From: an uncultured Candidatus Binatia bacterium
GTDB taxonomy: Bacteria; Desulfobacterota; Binatia; Bin18
Length of the DNA stretch: 64,000 bases
Assembly: GCA_965214605.1 (NCBI GenBank)
Contig: OZ243961.1
Span: forward strand, 2,272,001-2,336,000
Direction of reading: 5' to 3'
Part shown: piece after piece, positions 10,477 to 45,136 of the stretch
Numbering within the stretch: the stretch's first letter is position 1
Layout of the letters: the number at the start of each line of letters is the position of its first letter
Position numbers and translations under genes: made by a program
The notes under the pieces: model-generated
Told to the model about the DNA's origin: nothing
Database searches by the model: none
Seen by the model: the letters and a program-made list of their open reading frames with translations, nothing else

Positions 10477-10673
10477 TTATTGTTTCAGGTGCTTCTCACT
10501 TAGTACTACAGTTGTAGTTTAAGCGATGACATGGATGTTGCTCTCATTTTAACGCGAAAGACCTCTGATATCGGCAGATTTTTCGTCCATTGGGGTAGCT
10601 GCGTATCTCCATTATCAGCGGTGCCAAGGCGGTAATTGTAAATTGCACTAAACAACGAAAACGGTCAGTCAGA

Positions 10674-12993: not shown

Positions 12994-13246
12994 CGATGAA
13001 AGCCGTCCAGAGTGTGCGGTGGCTTTGAGGGGGCGGCAACCCATCTGCGCTAGGCAGCGGATCAGATAAACACGAGGTAATATGCAAAGTCGCTTACGGA
13101 CAGTATCCGTGCTGTTGAATCCGTGGCGCGCCTGATTAGTCCGGAAGCGAGCAGCCCCCCCACCGCAACGTCCTCACCCGGGGCAGTTCCGCTGGCTCTC
13201 AGTTTATCGCTCAGTGAGACGGCTGGGCGGCTCGGTGTTTAGCATC

Positions 13247-13275
13247 GGATTCGAACCTGCGGCCGCTGGCGTGTA
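13247..13275 (-). other. tRNA 3'-half-like fragment (possible att scar)
   Basis: The minus strand reads TACAC-GCCAG-CGGCC-GCAGG-TTCGAAT-CC, which fits anticodon loop, stem, variable loop and T-arm geometry. No complete tRNA is present. Confidence 0.35.
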
Positions 13276-13388
13276 TTTCCCGAACGAGTCCGCCCTCCTC
13301 AAGCAGACAATCGGACACGTCTTGCAAGCCGGTCCTCACGCCGACGTTTACAAAGCCCTCGAAATAGGCTGATATGCCTCAGTGAGGA

Positions 13389-29761: not shown

Positions 29762-32700
29762 GATCTATCCCCGCGTGTACGGGGAACCGCGCTGTAAGGC
29801 GTCTACCAACCCGGTCGGCTGAATCTATCCCCGCGTGTACGGGGGAACCGTCTGACCGGAGACCAGATTGCGCCGGGAAATCGGTCTATCCCCGCGTGTA
29901 CGGGGGAACCTAAGGAACATATAGTGGCAACAAGGCGGGACGGGGTCTATCCCCGCGTGTACGGGGGAACCATTTCATCACCCCGATAGAGGAGTCGAAC
30001 TATGGGTCTATCCCCGCGTGTACGGGGGAACCCTCGTAGTACGCGCGGTAGGCCTCGGTCAGCTGGGTCTATCCCCGCGTGTACGGGGGAACCCTGTCCT
30101 GTTAGCGCTATGAGTCTCTTCTTTAGGGTCTATCCCCGCGTGTACGGGGGAACCGCCCCATCCCTCCTGCTGTGCGGCTTCAATAAAGGTCTATCCCCGC
30201 GTGTACGGGGGAACCAACGCGAGGACAACGGTGACCACTACTATATCAGGTCTATCCCCGCGTGTACGGGGGAACCAAGGCCCCTCTCCGGGTGAATGTC
30301 TGGATCTGCGGTCTATCCCCGCGTGTACGGGGGAACCCACTAACCATCCACACACACCTGGGCTGGATCGGGTCTATCCCCGCGTGTACGGGGGAACCTG
30401 TTGGTTGTTTTTCGTGTTCGCCATGACTCTGGGTCTATCCCCGCGTGTACGGGGGAACCGTCACCGTTCTTCGATTGATTGTTAGTCCTTAGGGTCTATC
30501 CCCGCGTGTACGGGGGAACCGTATCGGACACCTCAACAGTCAGATCATAAAGAGGTCTATCCCCGCGTGTACGGGGGAACCCGCACATGGACATAGAGAT
30601 AAGAGCAGTTGCCAGGTCTATCCCCGCGTGTACGGGGGAACCCTTGGAACAGCGAGGAAATAAACAATCTGTCAGGGTCTATCCCCGCGTGTACGGGGGA
30701 ACCCTGCTCACTCCCTGTCCCGCGCTCACTCCCTGGGGTCTATCCCCGCGTGTACGGGGGAACCAGACTCTAAGAGGAACCCGTACTCAGATAGCAAGGT
30801 CTATCCCCGCGTGTACGGGGGAACCGTGTTGACACATCCTCTCCAGGATATACGATATGGTCTATCCCCGCGTGTACGGGGGAACCTCATCTTCTTTTGT
30901 TGGGACATAAAGAAGATAAGGTCTATCCCCGCGTGTACGGGGGAACCTCCTTTCCGGTACTGGAGAGGCCCCCCTAGCGAGGTCTATCCCCGCGTGTACG
31001 GGGGAACCTGGTGGTGTAGTCGCTCTGTAAAAAAATCCCAAGGTCTATCCCCGCGTGTACGGGGGAACCGCCCGGACAGTGCAATCCTGAACATGATCGT
31101 AGGGTCTATCCCCGCGTGTACGGGGGAACCCTGGCCGAGGTGCTCATAATCCTCTCATGATGAGGTCTATCCCCGCGTGTACGGGGGAACCATGCGAGAA
31201 CCATTTATAGCCAAGCGAAAAAGAGGTCTATCCCCGCGTGTACGGGGGAACCCCGGAGGTCGACCGTGAGCTGTTCCTCGAGGGGGGTCTATCCCCGCGT
31301 GTACGGGGGAACCCCAAATCGACATTCCCCCCGGCGGTGAAGCTGAGGTCTATCCCCGCGTGTACGGGGGAACCCAAATAGACGTCGCGTTGGCAGTATT
31401 CCCCAAAGGTCTATCCCCGCGTGTACGGGGGAACCTTGGGCATACGACGCACCGAACACCCGGTATTCGGTCTATCCCCGCGTGTACGGGGGAACCCGAT
31501 ATATCGTCGAAACGATCGGTTCTTCGAGGGGTCTATCCCCGCGTGTACGGGGGAACCTCCCGCCGTTGGTGGAGCTGCCGCCCCGCATGAGGTCTATCCC
31601 CGCGTGTACGGGGGAACCTCTGTAGCCCTCTTCGAATAGCTCCTTTTCAAAGGTCTATCCCCGCGTGTACGGGGGAACCTCGAAAAACAAGAGCCAGCTT
31701 TTTAAAGATCTGGGTCTATCCCCGCGTGTACGGGGGAACCGGCCAGGCGGGCAGGCGGGCAGGCTGTGTCAAAGGTCTATCCCCGCGTGTACGGGGGAAC
31801 CCTGGCCGAGGTGCTCATAATCCTCTCATGATGAGGTCTATCCCCGCGTGTACGGGGGAACCCCAGCGCGACAAGCCTTTTTTTCAACTGAATAGGGTCT
31901 ATCCCCGCGTGTACGGGGGAACCCGACACGGTTCAACTTGACTTCGGTCTACATGTGGTCTATCCCCGCGTGTACGGGGGAACCTTTATCAACAGGAAGC
32001 GATTTTACGGCATTAGCGGTCTATCCCCGCGTGTACGGGGGAACCCGGCCGCTCGGGGTCCTGAAAAAACGCAGGCAAGGTCTATCCCCGCGTGTACGGG
32101 GGAACCAGTGCGGGGCTCCCCTTGGCGGTGGAGGTGACGGGTCTATCCCCGCGTGTACGGGGGAACCTCCAGGATGGGATCCGAGATAGATCTGATCTGG
32201 GGTCTATCCCCGCGTGTACGGGGGAACCGGATTATGCGCTGAACACGCCAGACGCTACACCGGTCTATCCCCGCGTGTACGGGGGAACCACTCAAACATA
32301 GAAGCCTTCTCATGAACATCCAGGTCTATCCCCGCGTGTACGGGGGAACCTTTGTAAAGATTTTTATGAGGGGAGAAATAAACGGTCTATCCCCGCGTGT
32401 ACGGGGGAACCTTGCTGGTGTCCAGGCGAATCGGTGCGCCGTCAGGTCTATCCCCGCGTGTACGGGGGAACCCGCTTCAACCCGGACCGTAAAGGGCCGG
32501 AGTTGGGTCTATCCCCGCGTGTACGGGGGAACCCAATATCGACCCCCTCGGCAGTCGTGTCAAAGGGGTCTATCCCCGCGTGTACGGGGGAACCCTGGAA
32601 AGTGCAGACCAAGGCAGGAACCAGGCAGGTCTATCCCCGCGTGTACGGGGGAACCTCGTGCCTGAGATAGGCCAGGATCTCGTCCCGGGGTCTATCCCCG

Positions 32701-35667
32701 CGTGTACGGGGGAACCGGCGGCAGTGAGTTTGACCCGCGTGAGGGGGAGGGTCTATCCCCGCGTGTACGGGGGAACCCAGATGTTATCGCCTTTTGTTCC
32801 TGTTCCCACGGGTCTATCCCCGCGTGTACGGGGGAACCGCCATCGCTGCGGGGCAAAACCGGGCCTTCAGCGGTCTATCCCCGCGTGTACGGGGGAACCG
32901 CAAAATGACTTTCCACCTCACGGGATGGGAGCGGTCTATCCCCGCGTGTACGGGGGAACCGCCTACAACGGCCACACGCGCACTTTTCTCACGGGTCTAT
33001 CCCCGCGTGTACGGGGGAACCGGCGGGAGTTTGCGGGTTGTTTTAGGCATCTGAGGTCTATCCCCGCGTGTACGGGGGAACCAACTGCTGCTGGTCGTGA
33101 TACCGCTCATGGCAAGGTCTATCCCCGCGTGTACGGGGGAACCATATCGGTGGAGCTCCTGGAGCTTTTCATACGAGGTCTATCCCCGCGTGTACGGGGG
33201 AACCGATCCCCCTCGATTTGGATACCGAAATATCGACGGTCTATCCCCGCGTGTACGGGGGAACCTGTGTCACCACCCCGTCTTCCGGGGTCAAAATAGG
33301 TCTATCCCCGCGTGTACGGGGGAACCGTGGACCTGCGGGTCCACAGTGCCGAGCGCGGCGGTCTATCCCCGCGTGTACGGGGGAACCGTCACGGCAGGCG
33401 GCGCGGCCTACCCGGCGCGCGGTCTATCCCCGCGTGTACGGGGGAACCCGTGACCCACTCGTCGCTGTGTCCACGGATCAAGGTCTATCCCCGCGTGTAC
33501 GGGGGAACCATGTTTTTCCGCTTTTCCCCGGACCATATTTGCGGTCTATCCCCGCGTGTACGGGGGAACCTGTTTTGTCCCGGACCATATTTGCTCACGC
33601 AGGGGTCTATCCCCGCGTGTACGGGGGAACCCTTGTGTCGCAAGAGCTTAAGCAGTCTATTGCAGGTCTATCCCCGCGTGTACGGGGGAACCGTCCATGC
33701 CGTGCAAGTAATGCGGAGTCCGTAAGGTCTATCCCCGCGTGTACGGGGGAACCCTGGTGGGTGGACGTAGGGGTCTAGCGGCCTCCGGTCTATCCCCGCG
33801 TGTACGGGGGAACCGACTGGACCCCAGAGGAGAAGGCCAAGGTCCGCGGTCTATCCCCGCGTGTACGGGGGAACCCTGGACGGCCGTGGGGCTGGACGGC
33901 CGTGGGGCGGTCTATCCCCGCGTGTACGGGGGAACCCGGGCGGGGATCGTCAGCAGGAAGCTTAGTCTGGGTCTATCCCCGCGTGTACGGGGGAACCGAG
34001 GTCGCGGTGAGCGACGTCCCCTGGAGGCGGGGTCTATCCCCGCGTGTACGGGGGAACCGAAATGACCGGGCGTTGAAGGCCCGGACGTCGGGGTCTATCC
34101 CCGCGTGTACGGGGGAACCCCTCTTTGCGCCACACGTTACTCTATAAAGGCAGGTCTATCCCCGCGTGTACGGGGGAACCGCCGGCGCGGGCGGCTATAC
34201 GCCCGAGGAGGCGGGTCTATCCCCGCGTGTACGGGGGAACCTTCGCCAGGGCTTGGTTGACGAACAGCAGCGTGGGTCTATCCCCGCGTGTACGGGGGAA
34301 CCGTCGGGCGGGACGATCCCCAACTCGCGGAGGTAGGTCTATCCCCGCGTGTACGGGGGAACCCGTCTAGCTGCGTGCGGCCGGTATAGCTCAAGCGGTC
34401 TATCCCCGCGTGTACGGGGGAACCGGCACTTAGCATAGAAAACGACACGCGTCATACATCCCCGCGTGTCATAGAAGGTAGGTCTATCCCCGCGTGTACG
34501 GGGGAACCTCTGGTGTCGATATGCGCACGATTGCGAAATCGGGTCTATCCCCGCGTGTACGGGGGAACCTATATACGCTGCTCTGTCCCCCGCGTCAACC
34601 CCGGTCTATCCCCGCGTGTACGGGGGAACCTTCGGGTTGTAGAACAACGTAGTGTAATCCTTCGGTCTATCCCCGCGTGTACGGGGGAACCCGCTACCGT
34701 CCATGCGTGTCGGCCGCTAAGGGCGGTCTATCCCCGCGTGTACGGGGGAACCTTGGGTACGACGGGGCGCGTCGCCCCGTGCGTGGGTCTATCCCCGCGT
34801 GTACGGGGGAACCCGACTGGTTCCAGCGCGTCAAAGAGCGGCCCGAGGTCTATCCCCGCGTGTACGGGGGAACCCCTGTGCAAGAAAGAATGCCAAAACG
34901 ACATCAAGGTCTATCCCCGCGTGTACGGGGGAACCCCAGACAGTGGGTCTGGACACGAGGACACATGAGGTCTATCCCCGCGTGTACGGGGGAACCAGCA
35001 TCGGGAGGAGCTCGAGGTCGAGCCGGTCCGGTCTATCCCCGCGTGTACGGGGGAACCGATGCGTCGCCAGGATGGTACAGGACAGAAGAAGGTCTATCCC
35101 CGCGTGTACGGGGGAACCCCCGGCTCACCCTCCCGGCTCCAGCCCGGCTCCGGTCTATCCCCGCGTGTACGGGGGAACCTTGGGTTGTATGGACACCAAG
35201 TGTCAGCAAATAGGTCTATCCCCGCGTGTACGGGGGAACCCAGGAGACTCTATATATGACTCACGCTATTCAGGGTCTATCCCCGCGTGTACGGGGGAAC
35301 CCATGGAGTACATCAAGGAGCATGCATAAAATATGGTCTATCCCCGCGTGTACGGGGGAACCCGGCACTGATCCCACAGCTCTATATAAGAGAAAGGTCT
35401 ATCCCCGCGTGTACGGGGGAACCATTTTATTTGTCTTTTTTTATTCCAAAGGGTAAGGTCTATCCCCGCGTGTACGGGGGAACCATATGAGGTACATCAC
35501 ACCACATGTATAAAGTAGGTCTATCCCCGCGTGTACGGGGGAACCCTATCACGAACTTAGTGCTTTTATTTTTAAAAAGGTCTATCCCCGCGTGTACGGG
35601 GGAACCGGCGCTCTCCAGGACCGCCCCTTTCTTGGGCGGGGTCTATCCCCGCGTGTACGGGGGAACC
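29762..35667 (-). CRISPR. Type I-E CRISPR array: 97 repeats and 96 spacers; repeat GGTTCCCCCGTACACGCGGGGATAGACC (28 nt), 33-nt spacers
   Basis: GGTCTATCCCCGCGTGTACGGGGGAACC recurs on + with a 61-nt period. The degenerate repeats at 29762 and 29822 mark the trailer, and the leader abuts cas2. Repeats were counted by hand. Confidence 0.99.
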
Positions 35668-35743: not shown

Positions 35744-36049
35744 CTAAGTATCCTGACGCGGGCAGATTCGTCTGGAGAGAATGATACCCTCCTGATCCAC
35801 CAACTCGACGGGAGGCGTGCCGAGGACGCGCACGGCTTGCCCACCTGGTTCATGCGAGTCCTGCCACGTCATGATGATAGATCCTCCCCCAAGCTCCAAG
35901 AACCATTCTGAGATCACCGTCCAGATTTGCTTTCGCACACGGGAGGAAAGCGTTGGAGAGGTGTATATTCCGGGAGCGATCTCAAGCATACACGAAGCAA
36001 GAAACCCGCGGATCCGCGGGGCAACATCACGAGTGACTACTACTGTCAT
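35744..36049 (-). CDS. cas2: Cas2, type I-E
   Basis: MTVVVTRDVAPRIRGFLASCMLEIAPGIY. Confidence 0.93.
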   Translation of the reverse strand: MTVVVTRDVAPRIRGFLASCMLEIAPGIYTSPTLSSRVRKQIWTVISEWFLELGGGSIIMTWQDSHEPGGQAVRVLGTPPVELVDQEGIILSRRICPRQDT

Positions 36050-36908
36050 CGTTGTCAATCAACTGAATGATCCGGTCAATCATCTTTGAGATGATTTTCG
36101 TCTGTCTGAATCGTCGCCCGGCCAGCCGTCTGACATGCCGTTCAAGCGGGATATGGCCGTTGGCATAATACTGGCTGACTGCCTCAAAAGCGACCGGGAT
36201 AGTGACTTCGGTTCGGTAGAGGTCTGCTATGTCCAGGCAAAAGGCGATGGAAGCGTCCTCGTGGATAAAGCCCAGCGGGGGCAAGGTTCCGGTTGCTGCT
36301 ACGGCGACAATGGCCGCGGCTTCCGTAGCAGTGGCCGCGTGGTTGATAGCCTGGTTGGGGTCGTCGGCTATTTCCGGGTGCTGACGGTCATAGCGCCGTC
36401 CGTGCCAGTCAATGCCATAGCGCTCAGCCAGCAGTTGGTAGGATTTCTTCATCCGCGCCCCTTCGATACCGCGCATGATGGTGATGTCCTGTTCGGGCAG
36501 GACCTCGCCTAAACGCCAGGCATACATTCGGCGTGCGATCCGTAGCCGCACCCGTCGGTCGTTCCAGAGTTTCGCCTGACGGCGTGCCCTTCGTGAGTCG
36601 TTCGGACCAAAGGGCTGGGCGCTGTACATGCGCACCCCATCTTCTCCAACGGCCACGAGGCCGGTTCCGTGTCGGGCCAGCAGCCGGAAAACGTCGTGGC
36701 TGACGGTCGAGCCAGGCCCGAGCAGGATGAATGAGATGTTCTGAAACGGGATAGCATAATTTCCAGCCTGCATGTCTGCAGATCCTGCGGTGCGAAAACA
36801 CAACGTCCCATCCTCTACAGTAAGATTTCCTCGCGACAGCCACAACAAGCCGTGGCGGTCAGCGTGGGGCACTCGGGCCGCCTCCAGCCCTAATCTGCCT
36901 TTCAGCAA
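36027..36908 (-). CDS. cas1: Cas1, type I-E
   Basis: LLGPGSTVSH, RGIEGAR and LGFIHE...DIADLY motifs. Confidence 0.95.
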   Translation of the reverse strand: MLKGRLGLEAARVPHADRHGLLWLSRGNLTVEDGTLCFRTAGSADMQAGNYAIPFQNISFILLGPGSTVSHDVFRLLARHGTGLVAVGEDGVRMYSAQPFGPNDSRRARRQAKLWNDRRVRLRIARRMYAWRLGEVLPEQDITIMRGIEGARMKKSYQLLAERYGIDWHGRRYDRQHPEIADDPNQAINHAATATEAAAIVAVAATGTLPPLGFIHEDASIAFCLDIADLYRTEVTIPVAFEAVSQYYANGHIPLERHVRRLAGRRFRQTKIISKMIDRIIQLIDNDDSSSHS

Positions 36909-36956: not shown

Positions 36957-37688
36957 CTAGTTAGCGGTAACGCCGGCGGGCCGCAGGAGCAGCATCCCAT
37001 ACCCATAGGCGCGGTGCCGTCCAATGCCTTGAGCCAGTAGATTGGCGAAGGCGTCAGCGTCGGTAATGATGAGCGTGCCCCGCATGATCGCGTCTGGCCC
37101 TTCGCTGTAGCGAGCGTGACGCTTGCGCAAGGCACGAGTACGCTGAAAGGAGTACAGGGTGGCGCTTTCCAGCTGGGCGCCGCCCCGTCGTCGGAACTGT
37201 TCCGTTAGCCAATCGGCATAGACCTCCTCACGGCTACGCGGCATTTCTCCCTTTAGATGCTGAACTGCTTCCGATAAAAAAATATCGCATTCCTTGCCCG
37301 GACGGCAAGTGGAGTTGCGGGAGAGGCGCACGATAGGACGCACGCGCGTTTCAAAGCCCAAGCGCTTTCCGACCTGCCACCTTGACGGCATCGGCTTGCT
37401 GTTGAGGCCAGCGGCGGGGATGATAAGGGCTTGTAGCGGGTCGGCGTAGACGCTTGCCGCCTCGCGCAGGGTCTCGGCGTCAGCGCATCCATAACCGTAG
37501 AGGACGCCGCGGGATTGAGCGCGGCCGATTATCAGGCGAAAGGGTTGGGGCGCTGGCTTGCCGAACATTTCCCTGAGAAGGCAGTGCATGGCGTGATCGC
37601 TATCCTGTAAGTCCTTTAAACCCGTCCAGCGTCGGAAGTTTCGCATGTCCATGTCGGCTCGTATCATGTGGAGTAATGCCGTAGTCAT
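36957..37688 (-). CDS. cas6e: Cas6e (Cse3/CasE)
   Basis: C-terminal G-rich loop GIGRHRAYGYGMLLL. Confidence 0.93.
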   Translation of the reverse strand: MTTALLHMIRADMDMRNFRRWTGLKDLQDSDHAMHCLLREMFGKPAPQPFRLIIGRAQSRGVLYGYGCADAETLREAASVYADPLQALIIPAAGLNSKPMPSRWQVGKRLGFETRVRPIVRLSRNSTCRPGKECDIFLSEAVQHLKGEMPRSREEVYADWLTEQFRRRGGAQLESATLYSFQRTRALRKRHARYSEGPDAIMRGTLIITDADAFANLLAQGIGRHRAYGYGMLLLRPAGVTAN

Positions 37689-37697
37689 ACTATCTCC

Positions 37698-38417
37698 TTA
37701 CTTACCCCCTATCATCCCTTCGCACACCAGCCTCCCGCCGCCGTGCAGGCCAGAGAGCCAGTCGCGCCGGTCGGTAAGCATGTAGCTCCGACTGGGGACA
37801 ATCTCTGCTGTGCCTTCAGCGTCAGGCCATAGGAGTTGCCGGGAGGGTGGTTCATTCGACTCATCCGGCTCAGCGGCTAGTAGGGCGGCCAGGGCGGTCT
37901 CGCCGTCGCTGAAACCACCAAACAGGGGCGCTGACGGCAGGCACGATTTACGTCCGATGAACAGCGGACGCGCCGGCTCCTGCAGCGCCTCGGCCAAGTC
38001 ATCCAGTGTCGGCGCGTCCGTTGCCAATGCTAGGCGCATGGCAACGCTGACACGCATATCAGCGAAGTAGTCACGATAGCGCAGATGGGGCGCGTCATAG
38101 GTATTCGGACCGCCGGCTCGGCCTTCGGGCTGTCCGCGTGTAGTCCACGCCTTGTCGCCAGCCCCGAGTTGCGCCGTCTGAAAGTCGGTCAGACGTGCCC
38201 CGCCAGCCGGCTCCCGGTCAATGCGGACGGCGAAAACCAGCCGGTCTTGCAGGCGCTGATGCTGCTCCCGCTCAATGCGCCGCCAGCCTAAGGCATTAGC
38301 GAACAGACCCGTCAGCATGGACGCTGCTGGAAACCGGCGGATGACCCCATAATTATCGATTGCCTCGCCGCCAAAGGCCATGAGGGGGCTTTCCAGGTTC
38401 AGAATCAAGTGCCGCAT
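37698..38417 (-). CDS. cas5e: Cas5e (CasD)
   Basis: PLMAFGG, LFANALG and PLFIGRKSCLPS motifs; normal length with no HNH extension. Confidence 0.93.
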   Translation of the reverse strand: MRHLILNLESPLMAFGGEAIDNYGVIRRFPAASMLTGLFANALGWRRIEREQHQRLQDRLVFAVRIDREPAGGARLTDFQTAQLGAGDKAWTTRGQPEGRAGGPNTYDAPHLRYRDYFADMRVSVAMRLALATDAPTLDDLAEALQEPARPLFIGRKSCLPSAPLFGGFSDGETALAALLAAEPDESNEPPSRQLLWPDAEGTAEIVPSRSYMLTDRRDWLSGLHGGGRLVCEGMIGGK

Positions 38418-38419: not shown

Positions 38420-39589
38420 TTAGCCACCGTTACGAACCGCGTCCGCGGCCCAGCTCGCGAGGTCGTCGAGGCAGACGCGCTTGGCGCCGGGGAGCTCGCA
38501 GTCCTCAACTGTCATGACACATCGGTTTTCCCGCGCTCCATATGCGGCGTCCAGCTTGCCCAGATGTGCGGACAGAGAAGCCGTTGCCGCTGCGATCTGG
38601 GCCTGAGCGGGAGTACGGAAGGCGTTAGCCAGGCTGCGCGGCTGGCGTGTGCCAGCCTCAATTAGCATCAGGTCGGCACAGCTATAGGGGGCGGTAGAGC
38701 CCAGCTTTGCCCCAGGCGACACCGTAGCAATAATATGAACCAGATGCTCAAGAACTTTGCCGGTCAACGTTTTGTCCGCATTCTCCCATTCGTTGGCGGC
38801 ACAGCCCTCCAGATTAGAAACCAACCCTGGTACGTCTACAACCACATAGCCGTAAAACAGCCCTGCGGTCAGTTCCATATCGCCGATGTGGGCCGCGCCA
38901 GGGTCTTCATCCTCGCTCTGAAGGTCGTCCACCACCGAGAAATAATCGCTTTCGCTCTCTTCCTGATGCACGGTGAAGGCATGGGCGACATGAATAGCAG
39001 CATCAATGTTCGCGCCGGGGTCAGAAGTCACCATCCGGCCAAACATCGCGCCTTCCAGTCCGCCGGGTAGGCGCGCCTGCTCTCGAAAAGCGCGGAAGTT
39101 GTTGCCCTCGCCTTGGCGCCCCTTGAAAAGCTCATCTGCTGCCTTTTTTGCCGCGTCGGCATTATTGGCATGTTCGGTGCAGATAGCCTCTGCCTTTTTC
39201 CGGAGATACTCCACTTCAGGCAGACCGAGTAGGAGGGGCTGTCGCGCGCTTTCGGACGTCCCACTAGACCCGTACACGCCGACGTTGAAAGCGTTTTCGA
39301 CTGCTTCAAGAACGTCGTCAGCGATGCCGCCGGCCGTGCGTAATGGCTGCATCACCTTTCGCTCAACGACATTCCGGGAGCGTACTGCTTCCTGCGCGCC
39401 GGCAATGTTACGGAGGGAGAATTCATCATCTGCCACCCGCCAGTGTCGCTTGAGACACTGGGACGATATGCGGGTCCGCACCGTGCCGCCAAAGGGCATC
39501 CGCTTAGCGAGGCCGCTGTCATCACGGTTCAGCAGTGCCGCTGGGTAGGAATGCAGGGTGTGGATCTGTAGAAAACGTGCTTTGGTCAT
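38420..39589 (-). CDS. cas7e: Cas7e (Cse4/CasC)
   Basis: LNRDDSGLAKR, RISSQCLKR, FGRM and DYFSVVDD motifs. Confidence 0.95.
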   Translation of the reverse strand: MTKARFLQIHTLHSYPAALLNRDDSGLAKRMPFGGTVRTRISSQCLKRHWRVADDEFSLRNIAGAQEAVRSRNVVERKVMQPLRTAGGIADDVLEAVENAFNVGVYGSSGTSESARQPLLLGLPEVEYLRKKAEAICTEHANNADAAKKAADELFKGRQGEGNNFRAFREQARLPGGLEGAMFGRMVTSDPGANIDAAIHVAHAFTVHQEESESDYFSVVDDLQSEDEDPGAAHIGDMELTAGLFYGYVVVDVPGLVSNLEGCAANEWENADKTLTGKVLEHLVHIIATVSPGAKLGSTAPYSCADLMLIEAGTRQPRSLANAFRTPAQAQIAAATASLSAHLGKLDAAYGARENRCVMTVEDCELPGAKRVCLDDLASWAADAVRNGG

Positions 39590-39616
39590 TGTCAATCTCC
39601 TTGTGCTGGTAGTGCG

Positions 39617-40540
39617 CTAGTTTGTTGATGGTTGGGAGCTGAGCCGTTCTGCCTGATAGTAGGCGCGGGCGATACGGCGGCGTGCTTCTTCAGCCTGTTC
39701 TTCGTTGTACCCATCGTTCAGAATGAAGTATGCCATTTCATGCCAGTCGAAGACTTGGTTGGCGGAGGCCAACATTCGGAACAGCCGTGCCAGCAGTACA
39801 TACAGCATCGGTCCCCGAGCCGTTAGCAGTCGGTTCAGGCGTGTCTCGCTGTAGAAGGCGGTTGTCCGCTTGGTTTCACCGCCGAGGAACAGCGCTCTCC
39901 CAATCCTGGTTTTATTATGAGCGGAGCGTCTGTCCGCGGTGCCGGTCATCAGCGCGATACCGTGCATGATGAGCGCCCATTTGCGGTCGAAGGTACGATT
40001 GTCATAGCGTGGCAGCAGCCGCCAGAAGGCTGTTGCATCGGGGGTGTCCGGGGCCATCCGTCGTAATTCAGCTAGCTCCCTGCTGGACAAGTCACCGATA
40101 TCCCGGACAAGTTCGCATACAATAGCCGTAAGGGTAGGTCGAGGAGGCAGCCAGGGAGTGCTACGGACGACCTTGGACGACGGCTCGATAATCTGTCCGG
40201 TCTTATCTGGAGGACCGTCCCTTAAGATCTTCTCAATAGAGTTCCAATCTTTAGGACGCCAAACAAAGGTGGGGACTTGATGGGCAAAATCCTCCAGAAA
40301 CTCTTTCTGCTCATTAGACAGGCCGCCGTCGTCTGTTTTGAGTTCCGCAGCGATCATTGTACGGCGTCCATTTTTGTCCCTGTAGCGCAAGATCAAATCT
40401 GGGAACCCGCGTGGAATTGGTGCTTCCTTATAAGCATAAGCGCGGTCGGGAATATGGAATGGAGACCAGCCGTGGGATTTCGCTTCGGCTTCCACGGCTC
40501 GCTGGAACTCCCATTCATTCTTGAACGTAATCTCTGACAT
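39617..40540 (-). CDS. cas11: Cas11/Cse2 (CasB) fused to an N-terminal VRR-NUC (PD-(D/E)XK) nuclease domain
   Basis: The N-terminal ~107 aa read EWEFQ...GW..FH...GFPDL...AELKT..G.LS.EQ...VWRPKDW. After a Pro-rich linker, the C-terminal part carries Cse2 motifs LAELRR, FWRLL, SETRLNRLL, DW and RRRIARAYY. Confidence 0.88.
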   Translation of the reverse strand: MSEITFKNEWEFQRAVEAEAKSHGWSPFHIPDRAYAYKEAPIPRGFPDLILRYRDKNGRRTMIAAELKTDDGGLSNEQKEFLEDFAHQVPTFVWRPKDWNSIEKILRDGPPDKTGQIIEPSSKVVRSTPWLPPRPTLTAIVCELVRDIGDLSSRELAELRRMAPDTPDATAFWRLLPRYDNRTFDRKWALIMHGIALMTGTADRRSAHNKTRIGRALFLGGETKRTTAFYSETRLNRLLTARGPMLYVLLARLFRMLASANQVFDWHEMAYFILNDGYNEEQAEEARRRIARAYYQAERLSSQPSTN

Positions 40541-40542
40541 AA

Positions 40543-42099
40543 TCACTCCTCCTCGGTGTCGAACAGAAATGGCAGCCCCTTCGGCCCGCGCAGTCGCCCC
40601 TCAAATAGTCTCTCAGCGTTGGCATGGGCGCGGTAGCGGTGAATGGCGGGGCAGGGCAGGGCAGCCGTGGCGTCGCGGAGGACGCGGCGAGCGTGATCAA
40701 CTACCCCGTCTTTGCGGTTCATCAGCCAGGCCTCTCGGATGTGCTTGCGTTCAGTGTTCTCGGCCTCAAACTCGGTCTGTAGATCGTCAAAGAACCGGAC
40801 GTCAACGATTGCGTCGAGCTTGTCTCCCCAAGGATTGGCCAACCCTCGCTGCTCAGAGCTGGTATTGTTGCCCTCACCACGAGCGGCAAATGTTGCAATG
40901 GCGTGGCGCAAAATGCGCTGGACAATAGCAATCTGAGCAATACGGTCTTTGGCAATGTCGCCCAATTCCTGAGCCAGCATCCCAGAGCGCAGCATAGCTG
41001 TTCTGGCCTTGCTCCTGATGGGGATAATGCGTTCGTGATAGCCTTCGGTTTTGCCTTGGCCCCGCACCATTGCCCGGGCGACAAGCTGCATCGTTGCTGA
41101 GGAGCGCTGTTCGGCCTGTGTTGGCTGTAGCAAGAGCGGATGTTCCCATGAGGTCAGATATTCCGTAATCCGCTTGTAGGTAAAGCCGCCGGCGGGCAGA
41201 GTCAGGGCTTTCTCTTCTTTCGGGTTGATGGGGGTCCACGGGTCGCCCAGTCTGCCTTTGTGGTCTTTCGCCTCAATGCGCTCTGCTTTGGAACTTGCCC
41301 TGACCGCGCTGAGCTTGAGCTTGCCGTCCGCCCCGAAGCACAAGCGGATACGCCGGCAAATCTCGATGTAGTGGGAGGCCAGTTGGTTCGGCAGCAACTT
41401 TTCCGTTTTGGTCCCATTCCAGGGAAGGGTCCACAGTAGGCCGATATCGCCATCGGTCGTTGAAGGACTGCTCAGCAGTATCATGATATCGCGCCGTGCG
41501 TGCGCACCCGGTCGTGTGGACGGCGTCAGTGTGAAGGCCGGTCGGCTGCCGAATCCGCCATTCATCCGCGAGATTCCGTAATTGCCGGCCCCGCTGAATC
41601 CCTGCATCGTTTGCAGAGTAATTAGCGCAAACAGCCAGGAGTCCATGCTTGCCTCAGTCGCCACGGTCGATTTGAGGTCGTGGTTCTTAGATGTGACCAG
41701 CATGTCCAGCTCGTCGGGTGTTGCGATGGGGGTCTTGTAGTCTTTGGCCTTGTCTTCTGAGGAGGTCGGTGGCTGCATGAAGGCGGGAAGGCTGAAGTCG
41801 TCCACCACCAGCTGCCAGGGCTCGTCGCCCGGAGAGTCAGGCGTCAGCCCACGGATCAAGCTAGTCCATTCTGTCGCATCTACTGGTGGTTCACTAAGAC
41901 CGGCCCGGCGTATTGCCATCGTGCCGAGTTGGACGAAAAAGGCGTGGCAGGCGTGTCGTTGGTGGGGACGTAGTACGGGAAAAGCGTCTAGTTCATCCCG
42001 CATCAACGCGGTGTAGACTTCCGGCAACGACGCCTCTCTGCCTGAGCCGCTGCCTGCCGTATCAATCCGAATCAACGGTTCTGTGAGAATGTTGAACAT
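40543..42099 (-). CDS. cas8e: Cas8e (Cse1/CasA); possible in-frame N-terminal extension to 42234/42240
   Basis: MFNILTEPLI, LRPHQRHA, TPDELDML and GAGNYGISRMNGG motifs; first gene of the Cascade operon. Confidence 0.9.
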   Translation of the reverse strand: MFNILTEPLIRIDTAGSGSGREASLPEVYTALMRDELDAFPVLRPHQRHACHAFFVQLGTMAIRRAGLSEPPVDATEWTSLIRGLTPDSPGDEPWQLVVDDFSLPAFMQPPTSSEDKAKDYKTPIATPDELDMLVTSKNHDLKSTVATEASMDSWLFALITLQTMQGFSGAGNYGISRMNGGFGSRPAFTLTPSTRPGAHARRDIMILLSSPSTTDGDIGLLWTLPWNGTKTEKLLPNQLASHYIEICRRIRLCFGADGKLKLSAVRASSKAERIEAKDHKGRLGDPWTPINPKEEKALTLPAGGFTYKRITEYLTSWEHPLLLQPTQAEQRSSATMQLVARAMVRGQGKTEGYHERIIPIRSKARTAMLRSGMLAQELGDIAKDRIAQIAIVQRILRHAIATFAARGEGNNTSSEQRGLANPWGDKLDAIVDVRFFDDLQTEFEAENTERKHIREAWLMNRKDGVVDHARRVLRDATAALPCPAIHRYRAHANAERLFEGRLRGPKGLPFLFDTEEE

Positions 42100-42297
42100 G
42101 GGCCTTAACCTCTCTCTCAAGTGCCTCTGGTCAGAAGCATCTCCGTGTTGTATTTCTACCCGTGTGGTCCCAAGTTGGGTCTGCAACGTCAGGGATGGGG
42201 GAGGACGGGCTGCAGCTTGAACAGCATCTGTCATAATCATTCCTCCTAGAATCTTGCGAGAATATTTTGTCGCACTATTCTCTATTTAGCAACGCAA

Positions 42298-42466: not shown

Positions 42467-45136
42467 TCATCGTATCCGCCCTAGACCTAGGCGGCCATAG
42501 TGGAACTGTGCGTTGCCGACCTGAAAGATAAAACCGTCGTCTGTCAACTCAGGCGCGACCGGCTCTTCACTAGCTAAGTTGCGGGCCAGATGGTGGGGAA
42601 TCGTTATTTGGGAGATTGTTTCGCGGCTGAAGGGGCTGATCGGTGCCGGCTCCAACTCAACCGTTATACCCTCGTCGCCCAGCCGAGTCCGTATTTTCTC
42701 CTCCAGGGATCCAAAAATCACTTCCTGGTTGTCTACAAAAAAGGATTTATCACGCCGGACGACCGCACTCCGGGCAGTCAGACCCTCGGCAAGTTCGGTC
42801 CCCTTTAGCGTAGTAGCGTGAACCCGCCAGGCGTCTCCCAACTCTGCGGTGATGGCCTCCAGTGTCTCAATGTGGGTTGTTCGTTCGACCAGTTCTCGGT
42901 TCATCTCCGGGATGCGCCATAGACTGGCGCGCTTCGCATGATCTACAATCAGCCGCCTCGTGGCCTCCAGGACACGCAGGTCCTCATACACATGACCGTG
43001 CGGCCCCAGGCCATTCCGACCCGAACCTTTTGCCAGCAGGGGCGAGAGGTCCGTGTCGGTCGGCAGGAGCACGATGCAGATCGGTGTCTCATATCCGGCC
43101 GGCCGGTCAGGCCGTTGGTGTCGGTGTAAGCGGCCAATCCGCTGAAGCAGCACATCCATTGGGCACAGATCGGTTATGAGAAGGTCGGCGTCTATATCGA
43201 GAGATTGCTCCAGCGTCTGGGTGCCCACGACAACGCGTCCGCCGGGACGGCGGTTTTTGCCAAGCTGCTCCTCAACCGCTCTATCTAGTTGGAGACGGTC
43301 GCCAGCGGCGAACCGGCCGTGGTGGAGCGTGAAAACGTCCCCGCAGGCATACAGCAAACCACGTTCGTCGGACGGGACGCTTTTTTCCAGTGTTTGCTGG
43401 GTGTCGACCGCGTGACCGACCGTGTTGCGAATGACCAGAGCTTTTGCGCCGGCGCGGGCCGCGTGCAGGCTGCGTTCCGCGACCTGAGCGAAGTCATCCA
43501 TGGCCGCGGAGGCTTCAATTCGTACTGTTTTTTCTTTTCCATTGTGAGCGACAGCGACCATACGCTCACCGCCGTTCGCCTGGATTGTGACCGCGGGGTA
43601 GGGTGCTCTGATTGCCTCGCTGAGAGGGGGCATGTCTTGCAAACCGGCAAAATAGCGACGACGGGCCACAGAACCTAGTGTGGCCGACATCAACACCGCG
43701 TAGCCACCGGCGCTGATATGGGCGTCAAGCAGAGTCTTGAGAATACTGCTCATATAGGGGTCGGAGGCGTGTACTTCGTCCACTACCAGCAGACTGCGTG
43801 CTAGGCAGGCGGCGCGCAGATGGGCGTGTTTCACTTTGAGGGCTGCCATCATGGCCTGATCTACGGTGCCCACGGCAATTTGCGCCGCCAAGTAGCGTTT
43901 GGCGCTTTCTGCGGCCCACCGGCGTTTTTCGGTGGCGACGTCGGGATGATCGTCCCACCAGACCTCATAGTTTGGGAGATGTTTGCCTCCGGCATCTCCG
44001 GCCCGTACATAGCCGGGGACCGCTAAGACGGGCTCCGGACCGGTGTCTCTGGGAAACAGATTTGTGATGAATCGCACAACGCGCCCGTGCATCTGGCTGG
44101 CGGCCGCGCGAGTCGGTAGGGCAAAGTACAGTCCATCCACCAGTTCGGCCCGGTACATATGGGCAAAGCGCCACAAGGCAGCCTCAGTTTTGCCGGAGCC
44201 GGTTTCAGACTCGATGATGACCAGCCGCTCGTCCGTCGGGACCGCTTTTGCCGACCGCTGGATAGGATTGGGCGTTGCGTTGGGGATGCTGAACAGGTCG
44301 CCAAAATCCGGCAGGGCTGCCAGCTGGCGAAAGATCTTTCGCTGGCTTTTCAGATTCAACCCGATGTCCGAAACCGCACGGAGGGCGTTTTGTCGCGCGG
44401 TGTTGATGTAGTCGTTGCGTGACTCGGCGCAAAACGGAAAATTGCGTTCGTCAGAGCCAATCCAGTCGGCCAGCATGCATAGGCCCAGGAACATATGTTG
44501 GAAGGCAGGAGTGGATGGCAGGAGTGGCGTGTTGGACGTGAAGGCGGACGGGAACCATTGTCGCACGAGGTGGCTGATGCGCTCCACGCAGGCCTGGGGG
44601 TGTAACTCGCCAAAGGCGCGCCATGCTGAAGGGTTGGGTTGCCGCGTGTCCTCCAGTTGCAGGGGGAGGCCGTGATGCGACAGCGCAGCGATGAACAACC
44701 CGCAGACGGTCTCGCCGTCCTTATCGTCCCAGGTCAACAAATCATCCCACCAGCCCAGCGCGTCAAAAAACCAGGCGGATGTTTTTTCATCCTTGTTGTT
44801 CAGGATGGGCGTCAGATCGGCTATGTGGCCGGCGCGGGGTGGCGTTTTCTTGTACGCCGGCGCATCCGTGGGATGCCAGATGCGCGTCTGAAAGCCGACG
44901 TTGACCTTGCCGATATCGTGGAGAGCGGCAAATACTGCCAGCCGCGCCTCGGTTGCGCTGTCTATGACCTCCAGCCCGCCGGCCTGTGCCAGGCGTTGCC
45001 TGATGGTCGGCTGCGCCAGCAGTGTCTCGAAGCAGGCACCGACATCGGCCATGTGGTGCTCCAATAGATGAATGCGGCGCGGGTTGTCCCGGTCCGATTT
45101 TGCCCAGAATGCCCTGGTATATGCCGCGGCTGTCAT
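42467..45136 (-). CDS. cas3: Cas3 (HD nuclease plus SF2 helicase)
   Basis: HDIGK, LADW, ETGSGKTE, DEVH, QSLDID and QRIGRLHRH motifs are all intact. Confidence 0.96.
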   Translation of the reverse strand: MTAAAYTRAFWAKSDRDNPRRIHLLEHHMADVGACFETLLAQPTIRQRLAQAGGLEVIDSATEARLAVFAALHDIGKVNVGFQTRIWHPTDAPAYKKTPPRAGHIADLTPILNNKDEKTSAWFFDALGWWDDLLTWDDKDGETVCGLFIAALSHHGLPLQLEDTRQPNPSAWRAFGELHPQACVERISHLVRQWFPSAFTSNTPLLPSTPAFQHMFLGLCMLADWIGSDERNFPFCAESRNDYINTARQNALRAVSDIGLNLKSQRKIFRQLAALPDFGDLFSIPNATPNPIQRSAKAVPTDERLVIIESETGSGKTEAALWRFAHMYRAELVDGLYFALPTRAAASQMHGRVVRFITNLFPRDTGPEPVLAVPGYVRAGDAGGKHLPNYEVWWDDHPDVATEKRRWAAESAKRYLAAQIAVGTVDQAMMAALKVKHAHLRAACLARSLLVVDEVHASDPYMSSILKTLLDAHISAGGYAVLMSATLGSVARRRYFAGLQDMPPLSEAIRAPYPAVTIQANGGERMVAVAHNGKEKTVRIEASAAMDDFAQVAERSLHAARAGAKALVIRNTVGHAVDTQQTLEKSVPSDERGLLYACGDVFTLHHGRFAAGDRLQLDRAVEEQLGKNRRPGGRVVVGTQTLEQSLDIDADLLITDLCPMDVLLQRIGRLHRHQRPDRPAGYETPICIVLLPTDTDLSPLLAKGSGRNGLGPHGHVYEDLRVLEATRRLIVDHAKRASLWRIPEMNRELVERTTHIETLEAITAELGDAWRVHATTLKGTELAEGLTARSAVVRRDKSFFVDNQEVIFGSLEEKIRTRLGDEGITVELEPAPISPFSRETISQITIPHHLARNLASEEPVAPELTDDGFIFQVGNAQFHYGRLGLGRIR

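What the first reader, a model, noticed from the sequence alone, without database searches (positions are those of the whole stretch)
39617..40540. Type I-E Cascade whose Cas11 subunit carries a fused VRR-NUC nuclease, with Cas3 retained
Seen in sequence: the gene in the cse2 slot encodes 307 aa rather than the usual ~160-200. Its first ~107 aa resemble a phage-type VRR-NUC PD-(D/E)XK domain with intact catalytic residues (E..FQ, GFPD, ELK, EQ, VWRP.DW). A Pro-rich linker joins this in frame to a recognisable Cse2. The gene has its own RBS overlapping the cas8e 3' end, and there is no ATG or GTG in the linker, so the fusion appears obligatory. Established: I-E Cascade holds two Cas11 copies that contact the displaced strand of the R-loop. 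Stand-alone VRR-NUC proteins are dimeric junction resolvases, and FAN1's VRR-NUC cuts flaps. The nuclease-armed Cascades I know of use HNH on Cas5 or Cas8 and lack Cas3. Inference: the Cas11 dimer could place a dimeric structure-specific nuclease at the R-loop. That could give Cas3-independent RNA-guided cleavage or nicking, a backup against anti-Cas3 Acrs, or prespacer generation feeding the large array. I know of no described Cas11-VRR-NUC system.
Basis: partly seen in the sequence, partly recalled or inferred. Interest (0 to 1): 0.95.

Follow-up and report, generated by a model that had tools for sequence, protein, structure and literature searches.

The report
CRISPR Cascade subunit fused to nuclease
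This is a complete type I-E CRISPR system whose small Cascade subunit (Cas11) carries an extra, apparently active DNA-cutting domain; the rare variant is already catalogued as I-E3, but what the extra nuclease does is still unknown.

Summary
On the minus strand, 40540..39617 encodes a 307-aa protein: an N-terminal VRR-NUC PD-(D/E)XK domain (aa 1-108) with an intact E-PD-ExK-Q motif, a conserved Pro-rich linker, and a Cse2/Cas11 domain. It sits in a complete I-E locus: cas3, cas8e, cas11, cas7, cas5, cas6, cas1, cas2 and a 96-repeat array.

The fusion is not an assembly artefact. It occurs in 31 of 80 related loci, and contigs from other studies span it without differences.

The novelty claim fails. 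Altae-Tran 2023 reported the fusion, and Makarova 2025 named it variant I-E3 and left the nuclease's role open.

New here:
- The nuclease domain is under strong purifying selection (dN/dS 0.05-0.17).
- It is predicted to form the same homodimer as solved VRR-Nuc resolvases.
- Cas3 in fused loci keeps its HD and helicase motifs.
- The fused cas11 behaves as a swappable cassette: 19 state changes on the Cas7 tree against 4 on its own tree.
- In this window the break against the nearest unfused locus covers exactly codons 1-154.

Most likely the two Cas11 copies in Cascade carry a dimeric, structure-selective nuclease that acts on the R-loop alongside Cas3. This is inferred, not shown.

The parts
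42467..45136 (-). cas3 (889 aa), with HD nuclease and SF2 helicase
   Evidence: Pfam: Cas3_HD E 3.4e-31, Cas3-like_C_2 E 1.5e-30, DEAD E 1.2e-9. TIGR01587 E 1.1e-56. Aligns to solved Cas3 4q2c at E 3e-52. Motifs HDIGK, SHHG, ADWIGS, GSGKTEA and DEVHA are present.
40543..42240 (-). cas8e/cse1 (565 aa)
   Evidence: Pfam CRISPR_Cse1 E 5.6e-11. TIGR02547 E 1.6e-19, 70.2 bits against a 70.05-bit cut-off.
40546..40554 (-). Shine-Dalgarno sequence GAGGAGGAG for cas11, inside the 3' end of cas8e
   Evidence: Read directly from the sequence. The cas8e stop TGA is at 40543-40545 and the cas11 ATG at 40538-40540.
39617..40540 (-). Fused cas11 (307 aa): VRR-NUC, linker, Cse2. This is the signature gene of variant I-E3.
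   Evidence: AlphaFold2 model of the whole protein: pLDDT 91.3, pTM 0.78.
40217..40540 (-). VRR-NUC PD-(D/E)XK domain, aa 1-108, with E9, P47-D48, E66-x-K68 and Q78
   Evidence: [quoted passage not shown] BFVD fold hits to phage VRR-NUC proteins, best E 1.1e-6. PDB 4qbn_A VRR_NUC: TM 0.54 by query length, 0.69 by target length. Motif residues invariant in 32 of 32 sequences. dN/dS 0.05-0.17.
40133..40216 (-). Conserved Pro-rich linker, aa 109-136 (GPPDKTGQIIEPS...WLPPRPT)
   Evidence: G109, P110, P111, G115, S121 and L131 are invariant, and I117, I118, P120, P132 and P133 nearly invariant, in the 17 closest fusions. Block pLDDT 81-94. No in-frame start codon.
39617..40132 (-). Cse2/Cas11 helical domain, aa 137-307, plus stop codon
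   Evidence: Pfam and NCBIfam matches. Foldseek against E. coli Cascade Cse2 5h9e_B: E 1.2e-4, TM 0.77 by target length.
40079..40557 (-). Segment with no DNA similarity to the nearest unfused locus (L006). It covers cas11 codons 1-154 and is the swapped nuclease cassette.
   Evidence: blastn of the window against L006 gives 76-77% identity up to 40558 and again from 40078. L006 has 146 bp in place of these 479 bp.
38420..39595 (-). cas7/cse4 (longest ORF; the true start may be the ATG a few codons downstream)
   Evidence: Pfam Cas_CT1975 E 9.3e-97. TIGR01869 E 7.8e-90.
37698..38417 (-). cas5e
   Evidence: TIGR01868 E 4e-54.
36957..37688 (-). cas6e/cse3
   Evidence: Pfam CRISPR_assoc E 5.3e-28. 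TIGR01907 E 6.1e-15.
36027..36908 (-). cas1e
   Evidence: TIGR03638 E 4e-87.
35744..36058 (-). cas2 (104 aa ORF). Assigned by position and by tblastn matches at the same position in related loci. Not scanned against a family library.
   Evidence: ORF. Homologues found downstream of cas1 in the related loci.
29822..35667 (-). CRISPR array: 96 repeats of 28 nt, with 94 spacers of 33 nt and one 56-nt interval. The leader end is next to cas2.
   Evidence: 96 matches against 0 expected by chance. The terminal repeat at 29822 has 2 mismatches. Spacer lengths.

Best explanation
This locus is an intact member of the catalogued variant I-E3. [quoted passage not shown]

Shown here:
- The fusion is real, obligatory and conserved.
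- Its catalytic residues are under strong purifying selection.
- Cas3 stays intact alongside it.

Inferred:
- I-E Cascade holds two Cas11 copies (established knowledge). Each complex would therefore carry two VRR-NUC domains.
- These would pair through the beta-sheet and alpha-2 interface seen in stand-alone VRR-Nuc resolvases.
- That would place a dimeric, structure-selective nuclease on the belly of Cascade, next to the displaced strand and the fork-like ends of the R-loop.
- After R-loop formation it would nick or cut the target. This would add to Cas3 shredding and could partly stand in for it.
- The domain is an optional plug-in. It is exchanged between otherwise near-identical I-E loci by recombination at the cas8e/cas11 boundary and within or after cas11. 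This is the pattern expected of an arms-race accessory.
For: Identity:
- Cse2 at E 1.4e-11 and 6.5e-15; fold TM 0.77 by target length to E. coli Cse2.
- For the N-domain: phrog_93 at E 3.8e-7; top BFVD hits are phage VRR-NUC proteins, best E 1.1e-6 at 36% identity; PDB hits are all PD-(D/E)XK nucleases, including 4qbn_A and 4qbl VRR_NUC and the resolvase Hjc.
- The predicted topology and the E-PD-ExK plus Q motif match what Pennell 2014 describes (PMC4103454, sections 9-10 read).

Constraint on the nuclease:
- G45, F46, P47, D48, L49, E66, L67, K68 and Q78 are invariant in 32 of 32 sequences.
- E9, D48, E66, K68 and Q78 are at least 90% conserved in 47 fusions.
- N-domain dN/dS is 0.05-0.17 in 11 of 12 pairs. 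The twelfth pair had dS = 0.

The fusion is real:
- 31 of 80 loci carry it.
- Single contigs in runs X2 and X5 (study P2) cover 39400-40660 with 0 differences, and a contig in X7 (study P4) covers 39995-40229.
- There is no internal start codon.
- It is the only Cse2 and the only VRR_NUC match in this genome.

Dimer: ipSAE 0.66 against a best control of 0.00. The mark was reached by 20 of 30 solved pairs and 1 of 23 single chains. The runs agree in at least 90% of contacts, and partner pLDDT is 85. The interface uses beta-1, beta-2, beta-3 and alpha-2.

Cas3 is kept:
- Found in 26 of 31 fused loci, and elsewhere in the genome for 3 of the other 5.
- HD, Walker A and DEVH/DEAH motifs are intact in 25 of 25 fused-locus Cas3 sequences, window included.

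Cassette behaviour:
- 19 state changes on the Cas7 tree, at least 8 of them forced by starred branches, against 4 on the Cse2 tree.
- Three fused/unfused locus pairs are 83-89% identical on both sides of cas11, with no similarity inside it.
- The window and L006 break exactly at codons 1-154.
- P0003 and P0070 are 97% identical over their C-terminal 158 aa, with unrelated N-termini.
Against: - No biochemical or genetic data exist for any I-E3 system in the papers found.
- The Pfam VRR_NUC score is below the curated cut-off. Only 24 of 47 fusions match at E <= 0.01.
- Sequence profiles against the PDB gave only E 0.15 to the VRR-NUC entry 4qbl. PDB fold E-values are marginal, 0.015-0.13.
- The dimer prediction may reflect memory of solved VRR-Nuc dimers. 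It also says nothing about geometry inside Cascade.
- I could not place the N-terminus of Cas11 relative to the R-loop.
- Closely related loci do without the domain, so it is not needed for basic I-E function.
- Two perfect self-matching spacers are tolerated in this genome. That could mean weak or silent interference, although their flanks are not AAG-like.
- A few divergent family members have lost PD/ExK, for example P0146 and P0160.
Confidence: 0.5

Rival explanations
1. The nuclease serves spacer acquisition. It would be a Cascade-borne analogue of Cas4, also a PD-(D/E)XK nuclease, which I-E systems lack (recalled knowledge). It would cut target DNA into prespacer substrates during primed adaptation.
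For: The locus keeps cas1 and cas2 and has a very large array of 96 repeats. The nuclease is of the same superfamily as Cas4 (PDB fold hits include the Cas4-family proteins 9iac and 9iab at weak E 0.4-0.7).
Against: The domain is fused to an interference subunit, not to Cas1 or Cas2. The catalytic motif is intact in fused loci with no cas1 or cas2 within the held flanks: L008, L013, L025, L027 and L062. The fold is closest to VRR-NUC and Hjc resolvases rather than RecB-like Cas4.
Confidence: 0.15
2. The nuclease is target-activated and collateral. Once Cascade binds a target, the VRR-NUC dimer is released to cut branched DNA (forks, junctions) in trans. This would stall phage replication or cause abortive infection.
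For: Stand-alone VRR-Nuc enzymes cut four-way junctions and forks (PMC4103454, section 10). The VRR-Nuc toxin TseV3 cuts splayed arms and causes double-strand breaks (PMC9635880, abstract only). Collateral activity was reported for the Cas5-HNH type I system (PMC10910872, passage).
Against: Nothing in the sequence points to an activation switch. A trans-acting junction nuclease would be toxic, yet no immunity gene lies in the locus.
Confidence: 0.15
3. The domain is no longer catalytic in its role. It would serve as a DNA-binding or dimerisation module that stabilises the Cas11 pair or the R-loop.
For: E. coli Cas11 is dispensable for silencing and plasmid interference (PMC12235044, abstract only), so small-subunit changes can be modulatory. 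Some divergent members (P0146, P0160, and the second copy in P0132) lack catalytic residues.
Against: All catalytic residues, including the VRR-specific Q, are invariant in 32 of 32 species representatives. dN/dS is as low as for the Cse2 domain. Binding alone would not require E-PD-ExK.
Confidence: 0.1
4. The fusion is an assembly chimera or a gene-calling artefact, and only an unfused Cas11 is made.
For: None was found. The window comes from a metagenome-type assembly, which is the only reason to ask.
Against: The same architecture occurs in 31 independent genome loci and in 101 of 120 listed protein clusters. Contigs from other studies span the junction with 0 differences. There is no internal start codon with a ribosome-binding site. 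dN/dS shows the N-domain evolves as coding sequence.
Confidence: 0.01

Closest known systems
Type I-E variant I-E3, with a PD-(D/E)xK nuclease fused to Cas11 (Altae-Tran et al. 2023, Science; Makarova et al. 2025, Nat Microbiol)
   Same: The defining architecture is the same: an I-E locus with a VRR-NUC/PD-(D/E)xK domain fused to Cas11. Cas3 is present with an apparently active HD domain, as the 2025 paper notes for some members.
   Different: Nothing essential differs; this locus is a member. The papers give no mechanism. The subfamily structure, cassette exchange, selection analysis and dimer prediction reported here were not in the passages I read. I could not open their supplements or Zenodo data, which may list this locus or similar analyses.
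HNH-armed Cascades: I-E2 (Cas5-HNH) and I-F4 (Cas8-HNH)
   Same: A stand-alone mobile nuclease domain is grafted onto a Cascade subunit of a type I system (PMC10910872 and PMC12669027 passages).
   Different: The nuclease superfamily differs (HNH against PD-(D/E)XK), and so does the carrier subunit (Cas5 or Cas8 against Cas11, which is present in two copies). Those variants typically lack Cas3. Here Cas3 is present and intact in 26 of 31 fused loci and in the window.
Stand-alone bacterial and phage VRR-Nuc proteins (psNUC, stNUC, saNUC; PDB 4qbl, 4qbn)
   Same: [quoted passage not shown]
   Different: Those are free ~100-145 aa dimers that resolve Holliday junctions. Here the domain is tethered by a conserved Pro-rich linker to a Cascade subunit, so substrate choice should be set by the crRNA-guided complex. 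Sequence similarity is low: Pfam is below its cut-off, and identity to the PDB entries is 17-22%.
FAN1 VRR-NUC domain
   Same: It is the same domain family, and the VRR-NUC is embedded in a larger protein that directs it to a DNA structure (PMC4103454 abstract).
   Different: FAN1's domain is monomeric because an insertion blocks the dimer face, and it cuts 5' flaps. The domain here has no such insertion in the model and is predicted to dimerise.
Canonical type I-E Cascade-Cas3 (E. coli, Thermobifida fusca)
   Same: Gene order and content, the 28/29-nt repeat type and the Cse2 fold are the same.
   Different: Cas11 is 307 aa instead of the 150-179 aa of solved Cse2 chains (target lengths). It carries a nuclease at its N-terminus.

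Membership tests
Type I-E CRISPR-Cas | Signature genes cas8e (cse1) and cas11 (cse2), together with cas7e, cas5e, cas6e, cas3, cas1e and cas2 | tested here: met
   All are matched by I-E-specific NCBIfam or Pfam models except cas2. cas2 is assigned by position and by tblastn matches in related loci.
Type I-E CRISPR-Cas | An adjacent CRISPR array with I-E type repeats, a palindromic CCCCGCG...CGGGG core and a period of about 61 nt | tested here: met
   96 repeats with a 61-nt period at 29822-35667. The resemblance to the E. coli repeat is recalled, not computed.
Variant I-E3 (Makarova 2025) | A PD-(D/E)xK nuclease fused to Cas11 in an I-E locus | tested here: met
   A single 307-aa ORF with both domains. 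The definition comes from the PMC12669027 passage.
VRR-NUC (PF08774) | Pfam model score above the gathering threshold | tested here: not met
   20.1 bits against a 23.8-bit cut-off, E 6.8e-4, covering only model positions 62-105. 24 of 47 relatives match at E <= 0.01, best 4.3e-5.
VRR-NUC (PF08774) | [quoted passage not shown] | tested here: met
   Model elements H9-22, E25-27, E49-54, E60-67, H76-86, E91-94 and H96-108, plus a short extra helix at 32-35. BFVD VRR-NUC hits reach E 1.1e-6. PDB 4qbn_A gives TM 0.69 by target length, and Hjc 2wcz a probability of 0.97.
VRR-NUC (PF08774) | The E-PD-ExK catalytic motif plus the conserved Q that bonds the lysine | tested here: met
   E9, P47-D48, E66-L67-K68 and Q78 are invariant or nearly so. 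The motif definition comes from PMC4103454, section 9.
VRR-NUC (PF08774) | Metal-dependent, structure-selective nuclease activity | not testable with these tools
   This needs biochemistry.
Dimeric stand-alone VRR-Nuc resolvases | A homodimer through the central beta-sheets and alpha-2 | tested here: inconclusive
   The prediction passes: ipSAE 0.66 against a best control of 0.00. The mark was reached by 20 of 30 solved pairs and 1 of 23 single chains. Runs agree in at least 90% of contacts, and partner pLDDT is 85. The interface residues lie in beta-1 to beta-3 and alpha-2. It is a model and may be remembered from 4qbl and 4qbn.
Cse2/Cas11 (PF09485, TIGR02548) | Family model score above the cut-off, and the helical Cse2 fold | tested here: met
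   45.4 bits against 24.6 and 55.6 bits against 28.5. Foldseek to 5h9e_B gives E 1.2e-4 and TM 0.77 by target length.
HNH-Cascade (I-E2) | An HNH domain in Cas5 and loss of cas3 | tested here: not met
   Cas5 (239 aa) matches only Cas5 models, and cas3 is present.

The most novel reading that the evidence does not exclude
The VRR-NUC-Cas11 module is a horizontally exchanged plug-in. It would give I-E Cascade its own Cas3-independent, structure-specific cut at the R-loop, for example at the fork-like R-loop ends, yielding a defined break. It would be kept as a balanced polymorphism because it defeats phage inhibitors of Cas3. In Cascade-only loci where no I-E Cas3 match was found in the genome (L025, L008) it would be the sole effector nuclease.
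Probability: 0.25. Interest if true: 0.8.

Novelty: new member of a known kind. Interest (0 to 1): 0.5.

Why it matters
The 2025 CRISPR classification states that the role of the I-E3 nuclease is undetermined, so this is an open question.

This locus is a clean, complete example for testing it. It has an intact Cas3, an adaptation module, a 95-spacer array, and a single cas11 in the genome.

If the Cas11-borne nuclease cuts R-loops by itself, it would be a second route to RNA-guided DNA cleavage within a Cas3 system. The others are the HNH Cascades. It could also be a compact, programmable nickase or cutter.

The cassette-like exchange of cas11 alleles found here suggests the small subunit is a hotspot of arms-race evolution in type I-E systems. 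That idea can be tested with anti-CRISPR proteins.

Tried and rejected
- **Sequence searches against the PDB.** The single protein gave nothing. The full-length profile gave only chance hits such as the glucocorticoid receptor at E >= 0.07. The N-domain profile gave de novo TIM-barrel repeats, judged spurious, and 4qbl at E 0.15.
- **Stand-alone relatives of the N-domain.** The word-indexed search returned 5 proteins. Two to three are truncated fusions, and two are ~121-aa stand-alone VRR-like proteins at 38-40% identity. This is too few to trace an origin.
- **N-only hits in the representative search.** On reading, these looked like truncated or frameshifted fusions rather than split genes.
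- **Suspected internal stop in L005.** It was only the natural stop codon.
- **Is loss of Cas3 tied to the fusion? Rejected.**
  - No cas3 was found in the held flanks of 5 of 31 fused loci and 6 of 49 unfused loci; of those 6, L056 is a 4.5-kb contig and L066 begins at its contig end just upstream of cas11.
  - 3 of the 5 fused cases have cas3 elsewhere in the genome.
  - The unfused Cascade-only loci L073, L075, L077 and L078 also gave no I-E cas3 match with this query.
- **Self-targets as prophage or anti-CRISPR markers. Rejected.** The two perfect matches lie in a TonB-dependent receptor gene and in a small ORF beside pyrF.
- **Expression.** No RNA holder was listed for this stretch, so nothing can be said about expression.
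- **Parts of X6 and X7 without cover.** These are not evidence of anything.
- **Supplements.** The supplements of PMC10910872 (Data S2, Fig. S12-14) and the Zenodo data of PMC12669027 could not be opened. They may list this locus or give counts.
- **Papers read only in part.** PMC9635880 and PMC12235044 were read as abstracts only.
Full report
**Observation.** The reported interval holds one gene on the minus strand, from ATG at 40540 to a stop ending at 39617, encoding 307 aa.
- It is preceded by GAGGAGGAG at 40546-40554, inside the end of cas8e, whose TGA stop is at 40543-40545.
- Pfam and NCBIfam place a Cse2/Cas11 domain at about aa 152-297 (E 1.4e-11 and 6.5e-15).
- The N-terminal part matches Pfam VRR_NUC only below the curated cut-off: 20.1 against 23.8 bits, E 6.8e-4, aa 44-88.
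- It matches the phage family phrog_93 'endonuclease' better, at E 3.8e-7 over aa 7-99.
- No in-frame ATG, GTG or TTG lies between codons 63 and 150, so an unfused Cas11 cannot easily be made from this gene.

**Locus.** All genes are on the minus strand:
- cas3, 42467-45136
- cas8e, 40543-42240
- the fused cas11
- cas7, 38420-39595
- cas5, 37698-38417
- cas6, 36957-37688
- cas1, 36027-36908
- cas2, 35744-36058

An array of 96 repeats follows at 29822-35667, with its degenerate terminal repeat at the far end. Cas3 aligns to a solved Cas3 at E 3e-52 and shows HDIGK, HHG, GSGKT and DEVH. This genome holds only this one Cse2 match and this one VRR_NUC match.

**Is the N-domain a VRR-NUC?**
- An AlphaFold2 model of the whole protein, built from 47 fusions, is confident: pLDDT 91.3, pTM 0.78. 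Its C-half matches E. coli Cascade Cse2 (5h9e_B, E 1.2e-4, TM 0.77 by target length).
- The N-domain was modelled alone from 32 sequences, with pLDDT 85.8. [quoted passage not shown]
- Against the PDB its best hits are all PD-(D/E)XK nucleases, with marginal E-values: the SPARDA nuclease at 0.015, Hjc at 0.03, and VRR_NUC 4qbn_A at 0.077 with TM 0.69 by target length.
- Against predicted viral structures the top hits are phage VRR-NUC proteins. The best is E 1.1e-6 at 36% identity, and four hits have E <= 0.001.
[quoted passage not shown] PD, ExK and Q are invariant in 32 of 32 species representatives.
- Pairwise dN/dS for the N-domain is 0.05-0.17 in 11 of 12 close pairs; the twelfth had dS = 0. 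The Cse2 domain gives 0.00-0.20.

I conclude that this is a VRR-NUC-type nuclease kept catalytically competent by selection. It is divergent enough to fall below Pfam's threshold.

**Is the fusion real and conserved?**
- The word-indexed search found 772 relatives. Of the 120 clusters listed, 101 are 285-362 aa and cover at least 79% of the query. The other 19 are 194-208-aa unfused Cse2 proteins that match only the C-half.
- The exhaustive search found 1326 hits at E <= 0.001, including about 19 fused clusters at 50% identity among the 150 listed.
- In one-genome-per-species contigs, 97 relatives were found and 80 kept. Of these, 31 carry the N-domain: 20 from Dehalococcoidia, SAR202 or other Chloroflexota, 5 from Caldilineaceae, 4 from Binatia, 1 from Entotheonella and 1 from Thermodesulfobacteriota.
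- Contigs from two other studies span the gene or its domain junction with no differences: X2 and X5 cover 39400-40660, and X7 covers 39995-40229.

An assembly chimera is excluded.

**What is already in print.**
- Four full-text searches that combined VRR-NUC or VRR with Cas11, Cse2, Cascade or CRISPR returned one relevant paper. Altae-Tran et al. 2023 state the fusion in one sentence and show it in Fig. 6A (passages read).
- A further search led to Makarova et al. 2025. They name the variant I-E3, note that some members keep Cas3 with an apparently active HD domain, and say the role of the nuclease 'remains to be determined' (passage read).
- I found no experimental study.
- Supplements were closed.

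**Cas3 is kept, not replaced.**
- tblastn with the window's proteins finds cas3 in 26 of 31 fused loci and 43 of 49 unfused loci.
- Of the five fused loci without it, L011 has cas3 about 14 kb upstream, and the genomes of L013 and L062 carry it on another contig. For L008 nothing was found, and for L025 only a weak 79-residue match.
- Four unfused Cascade-only loci likewise gave no I-E cas3 match, so loss of Cas3 is not tied to the fusion.
- HD, HHG, ADWxGS, Walker A and DEVH/DEAH motifs are intact in 25 of 25 Cas3 sequences from fused loci (window included) and in 43 of 43 from unfused loci.

**The fused cas11 behaves as an exchangeable cassette.**
- On a Cas7 tree of 81 loci, the fused/unfused label needs 19 changes. 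At least 8 are forced by well-supported branches, and the mean for shuffled labels is about 25.
- On the tree of the Cse2 domain itself the label needs only 4 changes, and 26 of 32 fusions form one clade with 100% support.
- I call that clade subfamily B. Its N-domains read RGRGFPDLVM.
- The window, L001-L005 and the closest database proteins form subfamily A. Its members read IPxGFPDLxLRYRD and carry a GPPDxTGxIIEPS linker. Their Cse2 domains nest among unfused ones.
- Three fused/unfused locus pairs (L027/L042, L020/L060, L018/L047) are 83-89% identical in DNA through cas3-cas8e, and again from the end of cas11 or the start of cas7 onward. They show no detectable similarity across cas11.
- The window is collinear with the unfused Binatia locus L006 at 76-77% identity, except for 40079-40557. 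That stretch is exactly cas11 codons 1-154 (nuclease, linker and first Cse2 helix), against 146 bp in L006.
- P0003 (fused) and P0070 (unfused) are 97% identical over their last 158 residues, starting at the same ELRRM motif, and have unrelated N-termini.
- Within the window's genus, the other genomes with a match carry unfused Cse2, up to 73% identical. The fused form reappears in another genus of the family.

The trees are quick-mode trees (LG+G4, SH-aLRT only). The locus sample was drawn by similarity to the fusion. No rows were dropped.

**Dimer.** Two copies of the N-domain, with the 32-sequence alignment, gave ipSAE 0.66 (runs 0.66, 0.68, 0.66) against a best control of 0.00.
- The mark was reached by 20 of 30 proteins solved as pairs and by 1 of 23 solved as single chains.
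- The runs agree in at least 90% of contacts, and partner pLDDT is 85.
- The symmetric interface uses residues 26-31, 52, 54, 60, 62 and 81-89, among others. These lie in beta-1, beta-2, beta-3 and alpha-2. This is the mode Pennell et al. describe for the solved dimers, so the pass may be from memory.
- One database protein (P0132) has two tandem VRR-NUC copies before Cse2, and the second copy lacks PD, ExK and Q. This is a weak hint that a paired domain is the working unit.

**Mechanism.** The steps that are shown are the conserved, selected, obligatory fusion and the intact Cas3 beside it. The rest is inferred.
- I-E Cascade contains two Cas11 subunits that line the belly and contact the displaced strand. 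This is established knowledge, recalled.
- Stand-alone VRR-Nuc enzymes are dimers that cut four-way junctions and, more weakly, forks.
- TseV3 cuts splayed arms (abstract only).
- An R-loop offers two fork-like ends and a displaced single strand.
- The most economical reading is a Cascade-borne dimeric nuclease that nicks or cuts the target after R-loop formation, alongside Cas3.
- The patchy, cassette-like distribution fits an optional accessory under fluctuating selection. Counter-defence against Cas3 inhibitors is one candidate, but nothing here tests it.
- Rivals are an adaptation role, a collateral nuclease and a non-catalytic role. They are listed with their tests.

**Verdict.** The kind of system was reported in 2023 and named I-E3 in 2025. 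Its interest lies in the open functional question and in the allele-exchange pattern found here, not in discovery of the architecture.

Noticed in passing
window 29911-29943 and 32534-32566 (spacers 2 and 45, counted from the leader-distal end): Two spacers match this genome's own chromosome perfectly, 33 of 33 nt, at G000:C1:3218149-3218181 and 3170433-3170465. The targets lie inside a small ORF beside pyrF and inside a TonB-dependent receptor gene, not in a prophage. The 5' flanks (CC|C and CG|C) are not AAG-like, and one mimics the repeat end. A third spacer (33693-33725) matches 26 of 27 nt at C1:1689177.
   Followed up: partly
window 34425-34480: One 56-nt interval breaks the regular 61-nt period. 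It contains a decayed repeat core (ATCCCCGCGTGT). One spacer also occurs twice: 94 of the 95 are unique.
   Followed up: no
L025 (about 8367-13909) and L008 (about 5424-11294): These are Cascade-only I-E3 loci (cas8e, fused cas11, cas7, cas5, cas6), each followed directly by its own array. L025 has 2 repeats and 1 spacer; in L008 the pattern search found 8 adjacent repeat pairs, which I read as a run of 9 repeats. Neither has cas1, cas2 or cas3 nearby, and no I-E cas3 match was found in either genome. L025 sits beside ligA. The catalytic motif is intact in both.
   Followed up: partly
L013 and L068 (same genome, G042): One genome carries two related I-E Cascades. One is a complete unfused locus with cas3, cas1-2 and a very large array. 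The other is a Cascade-only fused locus. Their Cas7 proteins are sisters with 99% support.
   Followed up: no
P0132 (459 aa, database protein): This protein has two VRR-NUC domains in tandem before Cse2. The first has GFPD, ELK and Q. The second is degenerate (DFPR, SLR, no Q). It may be a built-in pseudo-dimer.
   Followed up: no
P0143, P0145, P0161 and others (721-804 aa): Some proteins of 721-804 aa match the Cse2 domain only at their C-terminal end. They look like Cas8e-Cas11 fusions, but this was not checked.
   Followed up: no
window 40128 (run X6) and 40626-40662 (runs X2, X5): A low-depth contig in X6 matches 40128-40311 and then runs on into unlike, low-complexity sequence. The break is at the boundary between the linker and the first Cse2 helix. 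In X2 and X5 a 32-43-nt piece at 40626-40662, in the 3' part of cas8e, has a several-fold higher depth and branching ends. Either may be strain variation or an assembly-graph artefact.
   Followed up: no
L027 13690-15976: In this fused locus the CRISPR array follows cas6 directly. cas3 is present, but no cas1 or cas2 was found in the held 20.5 kb.
   Followed up: no
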